In this document: positions 40,788 to 45,348 of the stretch, piece after piece | Layout: every line of letters starts with the position of its first letter | How positions within the stretch are numbered: the stretch's first letter is position 1 | NCBI GenBank assembly: GCA_964016885.1 | Contig: OZ024740.1 | Span: 34,968,001-35,032,000 of the forward strand | DNA: 64,000 nt | Source of the DNA: Eledone cirrhosa | Lineage: Eukaryota | Reading direction: 5' to 3' | Program-made: the position numbers and the translations under genes | Notes under the pieces: model-generated | The model's input: only the letters and a program-made list of their open reading frames with translations | Databases searched by the model: none | What the model was told of the DNA's origin: nothing

Positions 40788-40886
40788 TCTACAATGACAG
40801 GTTTGACTAAATGATAACCATTACTTATTGTAATGAGTAAGTGTTTAATTTAATAAAATGTTTATAACTCTCAATTGTTTTGTTAG

Positions 40887-41011
40887 GTAACAAACGCAAT
40901 GACATTGAAAGAACTTAGTGCATATGCAGAAGCTGGTGAAATCTCCGAGGAAGCTATTAGTTCGATTAGAACAGTTGTAGCGTTCGGTGGCGAAGCAAGT
41001 GAATGTAGACG
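40887..41011 (+). CDS. ABCB1: Internal 125-bp coding exon of a P-glycoprotein/ABCB full transporter (first transmembrane domain, intracellular loop)
   Basis: Acceptor TTGTTTTGTTAG ends at 40886 and donor GTAAGT starts at 41012. Phase 0-2 translation VTNAMTLKELSAYAEAGEISEEAISSIRTVVAFGGEASECR(R) matches the recalled human ABCB1 segment ILSSFTDKELLAYAKAGAVAEEVLAAIRTVIAFGGQKKELER. The symbol denotes the family (ABCB1/4/5/11-like), not proven orthology. Confidence 0.92.
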
Positions 41012-41475
41012 GTAAGTTATTTAAATATTTAAACATATATGATTCACGCGTGTATTGGATAAAAGAGAAAAATTCGTTTTAGTTTTTCACATATATATTA
41101 TATATACATAATTCAATGAACTTTAATAATATGTTAAAAAATATATATACACTTACCTTAGATCTCTTCATTTTCCTTCCTTGTTCTTCTTTATAAAAAG
41201 TGAATCAAACGTTGAACATTTTATTTTTCATAATAGAAACCTTTTGTTCTTATAAACTATACAACATGAGAGAACGTTCTCTCATGTTCTCAATATTAGG
41301 GTATAAATTTTGACTTTTCTCATAAATCAATCACTACCTTGATTAAATCTTAACCATCTACCATGTTAGGGTATGTCATGTATCATTTTATTTTATCTGA
41401 TGAGGACGTACTGTTGAACTTAATTCAGTACCTCTGAAATAAGTATAAGAATATCTGTTTTGTTTAATATTTGGA

Positions 41476-41477
<2 letters not shown>

Positions 41478-41539
<62 letters not shown>

Positions 41540-41548
41540 ATTTATATA
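41478..41548. repeat. (TA)n microsatellite
   Basis: TA run with a few TTTA interruptions. Confidence 0.95.
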
Positions 41549-41619
41549 CTTTTGGTGCTACACTATAACTATCAATAAGGAAGCAAAAAAGATAGAGAAA
41601 AAAAAAAATAGAAATTATA

Positions 41620-41754
41620 GAACGGAGGAGAGGGAGCGACAGACTCTACACTCCAGTCTGAACGGTATGTTTCAGCTGCGACCCGTGGATAAATGGCGAA
41701 GTCGTTGCCACGGAGACTGGCCTGCGTTACCCGCTGTCACTGCCACTCTACCTC
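41620..41754 (-). pseudogene. Degenerate 3'-terminal fragment of a CRE-like retrotransposon
   Basis: The minus strand reads EVEWQ*QRVTQASLRGNDFAI, aligning codon for codon with ELEWLFQRVSLAVLWGNAFSI of the neighbouring + strand relic. Confidence 0.65.
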
Positions 41755-41784
41755 ACATGTAAACTTCAAGTAGGAATTTTCCAG

Positions 41785-42440
41785 CTATTGCATCGTGGAC
41801 TCTTTCAGCCTCCACCCCTTTTCCTGTCGCTACCGTGCCGGCCGCATTCCACGCCATGCCCCCTCAACGGGGTCATTAAGCATGGCTTGGACGCTGCAGG
41901 CTTCCCTTCCCAGCTCGAGCTGGTGGGGCTGGATCGTTGGGACGGCAAAAGGCCTGATGGCACGACCATCTTCCCGTTCCGCGGTGGCAAGCCCCTCGTC
42001 TGGGATGCCACTTGCACCGACACTTTCTGCAGCCGCAACCTGGTGCAGTCTGCGACTGACCCAGGTTCTGCTGCACGTCGGGCTGAGGGGACCAAACTCC
42101 TCAAATACAGGTCGCTCTCCGACAGGTTTGCGGTCGTACCCTTGGCAGTGGAGACTTCTGGTGTCTTCGGCCCCAGGGCTACCTCCTTACTCACCCCATA
42201 GGCGCTGAGCTGGCCAGCCGCAGGTGTGAGCCCCGCGAGTTGGAGTGGCTTTTCCAGCGCGTCTCCCTTGCCGTCCTCTGGGGAAACGCCTTTTCTATTC
42301 TGTCCGCCGGGGCTGTGGGTGGGCCCCATCGCGCATCGTTGTAGTTGTTGTACAAGACGTAGTTATGCTGCAAATGGTTTGCTACTTTGGAAATGTCTCT
42401 TTAAAAAGCTTGATATTATGAAAGCCATAATGTGTTGAAT
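41785..42440 (+). mobile_element. 5'-truncated, frameshifted CRE-clade non-LTR retrotransposon (Zn-knuckle remnant plus restriction-like endonuclease)
   Basis: CIVDSFSLHPFSCRYRAGRIPRH /frameshift/ LNGVIKHGLDAAG...DGKRPDG...LVWDATCTDT...AE..K..KY...PLAVETSG /frameshift/ ...QRVSLAVLWGNA. This is the RH, PD-D-K RLE signature of CRE elements. The 3' end is approximate. Confidence 0.85.
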
Positions 42441-42441
42441 G

Positions 42442-42560
42442 AAGGCACCGTATTTGCAGAGCCGTTAGACCGTCGGAAAGAATACTTTGGGATATTCGTT
42501 CCGGTTCGCTGCACTCTGGGTTTAAATCCCACCTAGGTCAACTTTGCCTTTCATCCTTTT
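42442..42560 (+). mobile_element. Diverged, 3'-truncated tRNA-derived SINE
   Basis: Head AAGGC...TTGCAGAGCCGTTAG, degenerate B-box GGGTTTAAATCC and core GTCAACTTTGCCTTTCATCC. Confidence 0.75.
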
Positions 42561-42910
42561 TCTATATCTCTTTCTCACTTCTTCTCTATCACTCTCTGTC
42601 TTTCTCTGAAAGAAATCGGCTGTGTTCAGACCTGACGAGGGAAGAGATAGGCTCCGCCAGGTTTAAAAAAAAAAATTAAAGAAACGCTGTATGGCGTTAT
42701 GGCGCCTCTATGATCCCATCAATAGGTTAAAGGAAAAAAAAAAGAAGAGGGAATGAGTTGAATGGGGAATGTTCCTAGAAAGTTGAAGAAACTGCGAAGG
42801 TTATAGAGTAAGACTAAGGCTATATCATTCACGACGTTCATTCCAGGATGTCACCAAATGTAATGTACGAATTGAAGGAATTAAATGGGAATTATTAATT
42901 TATCAAATAA

Positions 42911-43095
42911 TTCTTTCTAACACTGGCACAAGTTCAGCAATTTGGGAGAAGGGAACAATCGATTATGTCAACTAAAGTACATAACTGGTACTTTATTTTA
43001 TCGACCCGAGTGTGTTACTGGTACTTTATTTCATACACCCTGGAAGGATGAAATGCAAAGGCGACTTCGGCGGGATTTAAACTCAGCACGTAAGT
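42911..43095 (-). mobile_element. tRNA-derived SINE of the same family with a small internal duplication
   Basis: The reverse complement reads CTGAGTTTAAATCCCGCCGAAGTCGCCTTTGCATTTCATCC...ATAAAGTACCAGT (twice)...AATTGCTGAACTTGTGCC, matching the 24013 copy. Confidence 0.8.
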
Positions 43096-43825
43096 TATAC
43101 CTGTAGAGATACAGATAGGTAACCCACTCTGTATGCATACAGATATAACTTTATCGTACACTTCGGCTGCTAGCTTACTTTTTAATGTATAATTTAATTA
43201 ATTACAAACACAAGTGCTAATTATATGCAAATTAGTATGACCATTTTAGAATAATACTAAGAGCGAATAAATACATGAAATACATGTTTCCTTGTAGTAA
43301 GGATAATATACACTCCTTCCAATGAGAGCCAAATTTGGTCAGAAAATCGATTAAAGGTGTTTATCATTCTTTCAATTTATAGGGAAATTCATATTTTCTG
43401 GTATATTTATATGTCTACATTTTAGCTATGAGTGTTTTTATACAGACATAACGTTCGATCACATGCTCTCGAACTTAAGTTCTGTTACCGCTGTGGTCTT
43501 GGATTTATTACCTTAAGTAGATCGCACATTCCTCGGTTTGTTGTTTTTTCCGCTGTTTTCTCTTTTCTTCCCTTTTTCCCTTTTCCCTTCTATTTTCCTT
43601 CTCTCGCTCCCCCGTTTTCCCAATAACTTACCCAGTTATTGAATGCTCTGGGGGTAGATATATTGTCTTTAAAGCGTTGAAATTTTCGAGACCCCCCAGT
43701 AGATAACTGATGAGGAAAAGTCCCCGCCCCCGTTCTTGCTTTCTTCTTATTCTCACTCCATTTTAAGCTACCTTAAATAGCAACTACACAGCCATTCCTA
43801 TTCTCCATATATTTTATATATATAT

Positions 43826-44010
43826 AGGTAAAATTCCGTTATGACGAATACCCTTATAACGAATTTTTCAGTATAACAACATTTTTTTCAATTCCTGAGG
43901 TAATAACAAACAAACACTCGATTTGTTTCGATCGATTTCGTTATAAAGAATTTTTCGTGAGAATGAATTTTTTTATACCCCGTGAATTTCGTTATAGCAG
44001 AATTTCACTG
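43826..44010. mobile_element. ~185-bp MITE, Tc1/mariner-pogo-like, set in TA runs
   Basis: Imperfect TIRs AGGTAAAATTCCGTTATGACGAA / TTCGTTATAGCAGAATTTCACTG, internal CGTTATAA motifs and TA-rich flanks. Confidence 0.7.
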
Positions 44011-44076
<66 letters not shown>

Positions 44077-44181
44077 ATATATATATAATATATGTATAAT
44101 ATATATATAATATATGTATATATATATGTATATATATATTATTTCTGGCAATATTACAACAATATGACAATCCTCAAGTAT

Positions 44182-44277
<96 letters not shown>

Positions 44278-44331
44278 ATACTTGAGGAGGGTCATATTGT
44301 TGTAATATTGCCAGAAATAATATATATATAC

Positions 44332-44385
<54 letters not shown>

Positions 44386-44550
44386 TATATTATATATATA
44401 TATATATTGCAGTGAAATTCCGTTATAACGAAATTCACGGGGTATAAAAAAATTCATTGTAACGAAAAATTCTTTATAACGTAATCGATCGAAACAAATC
44501 GAATGTTTGTTTGTTATTACCTCAGGAATTGAAAAAATGTCGTTATACTG
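43869..44550. repeat. Palindrome 1 (MITE part, TA runs and 46-bp unique arm, centred on (TA)n)
   Basis: 43869-44010 is the reverse complement of 44410-44550; 44141-44186 is the reverse complement of 44273-44319. Confidence 0.93.
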
Positions 44551-44893
44551 CAAAGCATGGCGTCCGACCCTCTACCGATACTGCCAATCCACCGCCTTAA
44601 CACAACACAATATAATGACAACACACTCCAGATATAGTTATATACGATACATTGATGTAATGTAGGAATAGAGAAACGATCAAGGCAAAGTTGAAACATA
44701 GAATTTTGAAATTAGGAAAATTAATTAATACAGAGAAACGGATATAAGAGAAGTAGACTCAACAAAGAGTAGTAAATACTTAGGGATTAATGAGCTAAAC
44801 AGAATACTACAAAGGAAAATAAGATACAATATATATATAGATACGATATATATATATCCAAACCCATGCTAGCGTGGAAGATGGACGTTAAAA

Positions 44894-44933
<40 letters not shown>

Positions 44934-45224
44934 ACATCTATCTTATTTTCCTTTGTAGTATTCTGTTTAGCTCATTAATCCCTAAGTATTTACTACTCTT
45001 TGTTGAGTCTACTTCTCTTATATCCGTTTCTCTGTATTAATTAATTTTCCTAATTTCAAAAGTCTCTTATGTTTCAACTTTGCCTTGATGGTTTTTCTAT
45101 TCCTACATTACATCAATGTATCGTATATAACTATATCTGGAGTGTGTTGTCATTATATTGTGTTGTGTTAAGGCGGTGGATTGGCAGTATCGGTAGAGGG
45201 TCGGACGCCATGCTTTGCAGTATA
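44544..45224. repeat. Palindrome 2 (~283-bp near-identical arms, ~112-bp spacer)
   Basis: 44544-44826 (TATACTGCAAAGCATGGCG...GAAAATAAGATA) is the reverse complement of 44939-45224 with only a few differences. Confidence 0.95.
44857..44932 (+). mobile_element. Retroposon 3' tail ending in (GAT)n
   Basis: TCCAAACCCATGCTAGCGTGGAAGATGGACGTTAAAA followed by (GAT)n. It resembles a recalled octopus SINE/LINE 3' end. Confidence 0.65.
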
Positions 45225-45348
45225 GAGTTACGGTCATTTATGATCTGAGTTCAAATCCCGTCGAGGTGAACTTTGGCTTTCATCCTTACGGGGTCGATAA
45301 AATAAAGTACCAGTCTCAAACTGGCGTCGATTTGATCGACTTTCCCCT
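45170..45348 (+). mobile_element. tRNA-derived SINE with intact head, running directly into satellite B
   Basis: A-box-like TGGCAGTATCGG, B-box GAGTTCAAATCC and core TTTCATCCTTACGGGGTCGATAAAATAAAGTACCAG. Confidence 0.85.

What the first reader, a model, noticed from the sequence alone, without database searches (positions are those of the whole stretch)
40788..45348. A lone P-glycoprotein exon between two satellite arrays implies satellite-filled giant introns
Seen: a 125-bp stop-free exon with canonical splice sites, only ~100 bp from the end of array A. I could not find the neighbouring exons (GDK...GWKLTL upstream; ALAFWYG downstream) in the non-repeat DNA. Known (recalled): vertebrate ABCB1/4/11 have an equivalent 125-bp phase 0-2 exon. 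Inferred: introns of >40 kb and >23 kb made mostly of satellite, reminiscent of Drosophila Y-loop genes but in a xenobiotic efflux gene.
Basis: partly seen in the sequence, partly recalled or inferred. Interest (0 to 1): 0.75.

Follow-up and report, generated by a model that had tools for sequence, protein, structure and literature searches.

The report
Octopus pump gene with satellite-swollen introns
In an octopus-type genome, a small exon between two repeat blocks belongs to an intact P-glycoprotein-type pump gene whose spliced transcript skips 108,000- and 36,000-base introns, each filled by a repeat found nowhere else; such repeats likely grow and shrink on the spot all over this genome and are likely tolerated rather than used.

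Summary
Confirmed and extended. The 125-bp exon (window 40887-41011) is coding exon 7 of an intact 28-exon, 1,257-aa ABCB1-like gene spanning 305 kb, 76% identical to an Octopus sinensis protein. Its flanking introns are gap-free: 107,599 bp (90% a 28-bp repeat) and 36,375 bp (85% a 24/21-bp repeat). A 3,756-nt contig from a likely RNA run joins exons 6-7-8 exactly. Exact probes find each repeat only in its own intron. A neighbouring paralogue, present in two near-identical copies, has 5.6- and 4.5-kb introns at these positions but its own giant ones elsewhere: one 35-bp array is 89 kb in one copy and about 297 kb in the other, though their exons differ by 0.3%. Similar arrays lie between the genes and cover about 15% of 39 sampled genome stretches. 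So this is a genome-wide habit of locus-private minisatellite growth, closer to avian intron 'stuttering' at 10-100 times the size than to fly Y-loops; no role for the arrays is shown. The scan found the same pattern before on other DNA of this genome; my literature searches found no description in octopods.

The parts
1..40886 (+). 3' part of intron 6 of the ABCB1-like gene A (whole intron C1:34,901,288-35,008,886; 107,599 bp; GT-AG)
   Evidence: skipped by spliced contig
1..32661 (+). Array A, main block: 28-bp AT-rich minisatellite, continuing 64.9 kb upstream to C1:34,903,109, where it starts 1 bp after a SINE 3' end; about 3,460 units in all; private to this intron
   Evidence: probes 190 of 190 and 906 of 906 genome hits lie in the array
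32662..37933 (+). Full-length LINE inserted in array A: ORF1 434 aa (33534-34838) and an open ORF2 frame of 952 codons with endonuclease and reverse-transcriptase domains; ATTAT-type tail
37934..40787 (+). Array A, last block (same 28-bp unit), holding a 0.3-kb 3' piece of the same LINE family at about 38352-38635
40788..40886 (+). 99-bp non-repeat spacer with the acceptor of exon 7
   Evidence: splice-site scores
40887..41011 (+). Coding exon 7 (125 bp, phase 0-2) of gene A; residues 239-279 of the O. sinensis relative
   Evidence: covered with 0 mismatches by a spliced contig
41012..64000 (+). 5' part of intron 7 (whole intron C1:35,009,012-35,045,386; 36,375 bp; GT-AG)
41640..42345 (+). GC-rich dispersed repeat; its frame carries an RPDG...WDATCTDT motif that I recall as the 3' end of a restriction-endonuclease-like non-LTR retrotransposon (label recalled; no Pfam hit)
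   Evidence: 30 blast pieces in fetched DNA
43825..44554 (.). Palindromic dispersed element (MITE-like) with (AT)n interior
44544..45224 (.). Local inverted duplication, arms about 283 nt and 98-99% complementary; predicted near-perfect hairpin in the pre-mRNA; one arm overlaps the SINE that abuts array B
   Evidence: -518 kcal/mol, z -41.6
45174..45347 (+). SINE copy (label recalled; 103 related pieces in 864 kb), cut at its 3' end, ending 1 bp before array B
45348..64000 (+). Array B: mixed 24/21-bp minisatellite, continuing to C1:35,044,203 (30,856 bp, about 1,340 units); private to this intron
   Evidence: probes 53 of 53 and 477 of 477 genome hits lie in the locus

Best explanation
The exon is part of an intact ABCB1-like gene whose spliced transcript skips two giant introns, each filled by its own private minisatellite that likely arose in place and likely grew by unequal exchange and slippage, as a tolerated by-product of a genome-wide tendency. 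Shown: gene model, intron sizes, splice joints, privacy of the repeats, and 2-3-fold array length differences between near-identical gene copies. Inferred steps: (1) a short local stretch is duplicated in tandem inside an intron (both window arrays start at a SINE 3' end, a hint only); (2) the array expands and contracts by block duplication, and LINEs later insert into it; (3) RNA polymerase II reads through it, and exon 7 is still recognised because its own splice sites are strong while the arrays offer few strong decoys; (4) selection keeps arrays out of exons and splice sites but does little about their length. Which intron swells differs between paralogues, so it looks like chance rather than design.
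For: Gene: 28 coding exons, 3,774-nt frame, no internal stop, 27 of 27 introns GT-AG, both Walker A, signature, Walker B and H-loop motifs twice, 76% identity to the O. sinensis protein; dN below dS against paralogue B in all five exon blocks tested, two of them overlapping. Splicing: a 3,756-nt contig of run X4 covers the exon with 0 mismatches; its loose ends equal the last 30 nt of exon 6 and the start of exon 8; 706 nt lie before and 2,922 nt after, against 708 and 2,938 in the model; the three DNA-like runs give unspliced contigs across both splice sites. Privacy: four exact probes, 190/190, 906/906, 53/53 and 477/477 genome hits in the locus. Growth in place: introns 6 and 7 are 5.6 and 4.5 kb in paralogue B; intron 10 is 2.7 kb in A, 91.9 kb in B1 and 302.5 kb in B2; one 58-bp repeat in intron 13 is 1.3, 46.8 and 21.9 kb in A, B1 and B2; B1 and B2 differ at 9 of 2,926 exon bases (20 of 24 exons located). 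B is also spliced across intron 10. Internal block duplications at lags such as 6,774 and 3,000 bp. Not gene-specific: intergenic arrays of 64, 38, 42 and 65 kb lie around gene A, and 8 of 39 sampled 9.8-kb stretches hold an array of 1 kb or more, 6 of 39 being at least half covered, mean 14.7% (bootstrap 5-26%), all with different units. Strong donor-like sites 0.09 and 0.0 per kb in arrays A and B against 1.24 in ordinary introns.
Against: Run X4 is not on record as RNA and comes from another sample than the DNA runs, so the array lengths in the spliced individual are unknown; all four runs come from one study. No founder sequence for either unit was found in 402 kb of nearby non-repeat DNA, so local birth rests on privacy and paralogue comparison. 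SINE adjacency is not significant over all arrays (4 of 26 ends within 40 bp, two of them one event; null 5%). Neutrality is untested: there are no population, expression or orthologue data. B1 and B2 could be two haplotypes rather than two copies. Gene A's introns are about 46% satellite, well above the 15% background, so this region may be a hot spot.
Confidence: 0.78

Rival explanations
1. The arrays are functional: they act as a length-variable delay or dose control on an inducible efflux pump, or need and recruit a dedicated Y-loop-like transcription and splicing programme.
For: The arrays add about 128 kb to a 305-kb gene, which would add an hour or more of transcription at 1-2 kb per minute (rate recalled). 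All three ABCB copies carry large arrays. Fly genes with satellite introns need dedicated RNA-binding proteins (PMC6508621, passages).
Against: Different introns and unrelated units in each paralogue; 2-3-fold length drift between near-identical copies; equally large arrays between genes and across the genome. There is no clear strand bias against poly(A) hexamers among 11 intronic arrays (sense higher in 2, antisense higher in 5, tied in 4).
Confidence: 0.12
2. The gene and splicing are real, but array lengths are inflated or misplaced by the assembly, and B1/B2 are two haplotypes laid in tandem.
For: Gaps fall inside the same 46-bp array after both B1 and B2, followed by an inverted partial copy of gene A's 3' end. 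B1 and B2 non-repeat DNA is 96-99% identical, within what alleles might show.
Against: No N in introns 6 and 7. About half of the 120-mers in each array are unique, so they can be resolved. A and the 5' part of B2 lie in one gap-free stretch, and A's contig begins with the private array that follows B, which calls for at least B-A-B. The probe count left for B2 (1,655) fits a full 297-kb array (1,697 expected). Contig depth on shared B DNA was 2.5, 2.8 and 1.1 times that at A's exon (a weak hint). If B1 and B2 are alleles, the length difference is a polymorphism and the main reading stands.
Confidence: 0.08
3. The exon is an orphan duplicate or pseudo-exon stranded in heterochromatin.
For: It is isolated among repeats, and stray exon fragments do occur in paralogue B's introns.
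Against: It is the only exon for residues 239-279 between exons 6 and 8 of an intact frame, and the spliced contig includes it.
Confidence: 0.02

Closest known systems
Avian intron 'sequence stuttering' on dot chromosomes (PMC12954441; read: abstract, first parts of sections 7 and 8, whole Discussion)
   Same: Locally born imperfect tandem repeats of tens of bases, each confined to one intron; exons intact; lengths differ between close copies; intergenic DNA also affected.
   Different: Their worked example is a 1.6-2.9-kb intron; here introns are 22-303 kb. Theirs sit on GC-rich dot chromosomes; these arrays are 22-26% GC on a 443-Mb chromosome. No exon-derived unit was found for arrays A and B. 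Variation between individuals was not measured here.
Drosophila Y-loop genes kl-3 and kl-5 (PMC6508621; 12 passages read; PMC11207136 search listing only)
   Same: Small exons separated by satellite-filled introns that are transcribed and spliced out.
   Different: Megabase introns of simple satellites such as (AATAT)n making up over 99% of the locus, Y-linked, spermatocyte-timed, and needing Blanks and Heph. Here 0.04-0.1 Mb of private 21-28-bp units, about 46% of intron DNA, in an ABCB gene; tissue and cofactors unknown.
ABCB1/ABCB4/ABCB5/ABCB11-type full ABC transporters; O. sinensis ATP-dependent translocase ABCB1-like (P0002)
   Same: Collinear full-length match at 76% identity, two membrane and two ATPase halves, intact motifs.
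   Different: Orthology among ABCB subtypes and the substrate were not tested; intron sizes in the O. sinensis gene could not be fetched.

Membership tests
ABCB full transporter (P-glycoprotein type) | Two transmembrane domains and two nucleotide-binding domains in one frame | tested here: met
   1,257-aa model aligns end to end with P0002 (76%), which has PF00664 twice and PF00005 twice
ABCB full transporter (P-glycoprotein type) | Walker A, LSGGQ, Walker B and H-loop intact in both halves | tested here: met
ABCB full transporter (P-glycoprotein type) | ABCB1 orthology and xenobiotic efflux activity | not tested
   No tree built; activity needs an assay. Top exon hits include ABCB4, ABCB1, ABCB11 and ABCB5-named proteins
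Drosophila Y-loop-type gene | Satellite-filled introns removed from a spliced mRNA | tested here: met
   nascent satellite RNA itself was not observed
Drosophila Y-loop-type gene | Megabase introns, over 99% of the locus satellite | tested here: not met
   107.6 and 36.4 kb; 305-kb gene; about 46% of intron DNA
Drosophila Y-loop-type gene | Simple short satellites such as (AATAT)n | tested here: not met
   28-bp and 24/21-bp units private to one intron each
Drosophila Y-loop-type gene | Y-linked, spermatocyte-timed expression with dedicated RNA-binding proteins | not testable with these tools
   Tissue of run X4 not on record
Avian sequence stuttering | Imperfect repeats of local origin confined to single introns, exons intact | tested here: met
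Avian sequence stuttering | Extensive length variation within the species | tested here: inconclusive
   2-3-fold differences between B1 and B2, which are recent copies or alleles; no data across individuals
Avian sequence stuttering | Occasional exon-edge fragments as the repeated unit | tested here: not met
   Units of arrays A and B match no exon edge beyond chance (the exon-7 acceptor ranks in the top 3% of 38,910 windows). The feature is occasional in birds too
Avian sequence stuttering | GC-rich dot-chromosome setting | tested here: not met
   22-26% GC; contig C1 is 443 Mb

The most novel reading that the evidence does not exclude
Octopods run an undescribed, genome-wide engine that turns intron DNA into private 10-300-kb minisatellites (about a seventh of the genome), changing by 100-200 kb between gene copies that are 99.7% identical in exons. 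In this efflux-pump cluster the array lengths act as hypermutable timing or dose alleles, and ordinary body cells use Y-loop-like machinery to read through them.
Probability: 0.13. Interest if true: 0.8.

Novelty: new variant of a known kind. Interest (0 to 1): 0.47.

Why it matters
It gives spliced-transcript proof that ordinary somatic-type genes can carry 100-kb satellite introns, and a three-copy natural experiment (A, B1, B2) showing which intron swells and how fast. That makes two open questions testable in one locus: whether intronic satellite is a tolerated burden or a regulator, and how private satellites are born. It also warns that octopod genes will be split or lost in short-read assemblies. 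It is one example of a pattern this scan has met repeatedly in this genome, which lowers the surprise of the single case.

Tried and rejected
1) Array A as a stuttered copy of the exon-7 acceptor: they resemble each other by eye, but the acceptor ranks only in the top 3% of 38,910 windows and was picked after the fact; rejected. 2) SINE ends as general seeds: 4 of 26 array ends lie within 40 bp of a SINE (3 independent) against a 5% null; not significant, kept as a hint. 3) The LINE as a satellite-targeting element: three 3' ends lie in array A (92-96% alike), but 0 of 10 other genome copies examined, of 69 outside the array, are directly followed by an array; rejected as a general rule. 4) Strand selection against poly(A) or splice signals: no consistent bias in 11 arrays. 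5) The run search listed no holder on record as RNA; X4 is called a likely RNA run only from its spliced joints and small size. 6) Depth as copy number for B: ratios 2.5, 2.8 and 1.1; a weak hint only. 7) Vertebrate exon sizes: no usable paper. 8) Literature: searches listed no paper on satellite-filled introns or ABCB gene structure in octopods. A 2026 repeat annotation of O. vulgaris (PMC13282606; first third and 8 passages read) has no occurrence of 'intron'. Supplements were not read and subscription journals are not covered. 9) No earlier scan note lay near this place or matched the protein. 10) Exons 2, 15 and 16 were placed by weak homology scans; only the total length check against the transcript contig supports them.
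Full report
Observation. The window is C1:34,968,001-35,032,000 of a 3.0-Gb genome. Tandem Repeats Finder gives a 28-bp array at 1-32661 and 37934-40787, and a 24-bp array from 45348 to the end. At 40887-41011 lies a 125-bp stop-free stretch with AG before and GTAAGT after. It matches ABCB1/4/11 chains in the PDB, and its three best protein hits are octopod multidrug-resistance proteins (76%, 74% and 74%), so the animal is likely an octopod.

The gene. Searching the genome with the O. sinensis protein gave collinear plus-strand exons on both sides. 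With 200 kb fetched on each side I built a model of 28 coding exons over 305,098 bp: 3,774 nt, 1,257 aa, no internal stop, 27 of 27 introns GT-AG, both ATPase motif sets intact, and 76% identity over 1,256 columns. Three short, poorly conserved exons (2, 15, 16) rest on weak scans. The window's exon is exon 7. Intron 6 is 107,599 bp and intron 7 is 36,375 bp; neither contains an N. After removing four LINE pieces, array A makes up 96,950 bp of intron 6 (90%, about 3,460 units). Array B makes up 30,856 bp of intron 7 (85%; mixed 24- and 21-bp units). The other 25 introns are 0.5-22 kb.

Splicing. The run search listed four holders from one study, none on record as RNA. Run X4 (another sample, 88 million letters of contigs) has a 3,756-nt contig that covers the exon with no mismatch and not its flanks. 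Its loose ends are the last 30 bases of exon 6 and the start of exon 8. It has 706 bases before and 2,922 after the matched piece, against 708 and 2,938 coding bases in the model. Runs X1-X3 give unspliced contigs across both splice sites. So X4 is likely an RNA run, and exons 6-7-8 are joined exactly. The array lengths in that individual are not known.

The repeats are private. Exact probes hit only their own intron: 190 of 190 and 906 of 906 genome hits for array A; 53 of 53 and 477 of 477 for array B; all on one strand (counted locally). Diverged relatives elsewhere would escape exact probes. No source for either unit was found in 402 kb of nearby non-repeat DNA. Both arrays start 1 bp after the 3' end of a SINE copy, but over 14 arrays the association is not significant. 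About half of the 120-mers in each array are unique, and long internal block duplications are present, as unequal exchange would leave.

A natural experiment next door. A paralogue B (53-79% identical to A in most exons) flanks A in two copies, B1 upstream and B2 downstream, which differ at 9 of 2,926 exon bases (20 of 24 exons located) and by about 1-4% in aligned non-repeat blocks. In B, introns 6 and 7 are 5.6-5.8 and 4.5 kb. Intron 10, 2.7 kb in A, is 91,867 bp in B1 and 302,549 bp in B2 and is filled by a 35-bp unit. I sampled 127 of the 297 kb of the B2 array; the genome count of a probe minus B1's count (1,655) fits a full array (1,697 expected). X4 also splices B across this intron. 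Exons 13 and 14 are 97-98% identical between A and B, which likely reflects gene conversion, and the intron between them holds the same 58-bp repeat at 1.3 kb (A), 46.8 kb (B1) and 21.9 kb (B2). A 45-bp array in intron 14 is 16.6 against 28.0 kb. B1 and B2 are likely true tandem copies: A runs gap-free into B2, and A's contig starts in the private array that follows B. Gaps at matching places and an inverted partial copy of A's 3' end leave open that they are haplotypes. Either way, arrays change 2-3-fold while the flanking DNA changes by a few percent at most.

Background. Arrays of 64, 38, 42 and 65 kb, each with a different unit, lie between the genes. Of 39 evenly spaced 9.8-kb samples from 12 large contigs (40 asked for, one absent), 8 hold an array of at least 1 kb with period 10 or more and 6 are at least half covered; mean cover is 14.7% (bootstrap 5-26%), with eight different units. 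I did not test whether those samples are genic or private. Earlier notes of this scan report the same in ALDH5A1, VPS15, AK7 and other genes of this genome (unreviewed, not checked here).

Mechanism. Shown: gene, introns, joints, privacy and length differences. Inferred: tandem duplication of a local stretch, growth and shrinkage by unequal exchange and slippage, later LINE insertion, and read-through by polymerase II with exon definition. Consistent with the last step, the four splice sites around the two introns score at or above the median of this locus's own sites, and the arrays hold fewer strong donor-like sites than ordinary introns (0.09 and 0.0 against 1.24 per kb). Acceptor-like sites are 0.0 and 0.39 against 0.61, and poly(A) hexamers 1.71 and 0.0 against 2.84 per kb (matrix trained on the same sites). 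I put about 0.78 on tolerated growth in place, 0.12 on a regulatory role, 0.08 on assembly inflation and 0.02 on an orphan exon.

Comparison. It works like fly Y-loop genes only in that satellite introns are spliced out; size, unit type and setting fail the membership test (PMC6508621, passages). It is closer to avian sequence stuttering (PMC12954441; abstract, parts of the Results, Discussion), whose authors report it for GC-rich bird dot chromosomes with a kilobase-scale example. Here it is AT-rich, 10-100 times larger and on a very large chromosome. My searches listed no description in octopods, and a recent O. vulgaris repeat annotation does not mention introns; supplements and subscription journals were not seen.

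Verdict. Real, well supported, and a new variant of a known kind. The single exon is less surprising than first thought because the pattern is common in this genome, but the spliced contig and the three-copy comparison make this locus a good test bed. Interest 0.47.

Noticed in passing
window 44544-45224: Local inverted duplication with arms of about 283 nt, 98-99% complementary, predicted to fold as a near-perfect hairpin in the pre-mRNA (z -41.6); the arm interior has no other copy in 1.96 Mb fetched. A candidate RNA-editing substrate; it overlaps the SINE at which array B starts.
   Followed up: partly
G000:C1:34,935,540-34,940,150; window 32662-37933 and 38352-38635: Three 3' ends of one LINE family (92-96% alike) inside array A, all in sense orientation; one older copy is split by 1.4 kb of satellite. 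The full-length copy has open frames. Not satellite-targeted elsewhere (0 of 10).
   Followed up: partly
G000:C1:35,056,563-35,058,354 and 35,154,819-35,158,383 against B1: Exons 13, 14, 27 and 28 (ATPase halves) are 97-98% identical between paralogues A and B while membrane-domain exons are mostly 52-75%: likely gene conversion, which carried the 58-bp intron repeat. In A that repeat starts 6 bp after the donor.
   Followed up: partly
G000:C1:36,052,000-36,128,168 (L128-L133): Inverted piece between two gaps: the private 46-bp array followed directly by only the last two exons of gene A and its downstream DNA (96-99% identical), i.e. a truncated second copy of A or a haplotype with a large deletion.
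   Followed up: partly
G000:C1:34,200,001-34,377,919 and 35,338,634-35,403,664: The 47-bp array upstream of the located B exons is at least 178 kb (sampled) before B1 and 65 kb before B2. B's first two coding exons were not located, so it may be intronic.
   Followed up: no
G000:C1:34,659,539-34,659,697; 34,695,262-34,695,522; 34,745,470-34,745,550: Stray exon fragments (two inverted) inside paralogue B's introns, one right at the end of the 45-bp array.
   Followed up: no
G000:C1:34,901,700-34,902,800 (L017): A minus-strand transposase-like remnant (mariner-like by recall) in the short non-repeat start of intron 6.
   Followed up: no
L151, L152, L156, L163, L167, L172, L181, L182: Background samples with large arrays of periods 87, 23, 16, 20, 35, 51, 84 and 109, all different.
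   Followed up: no
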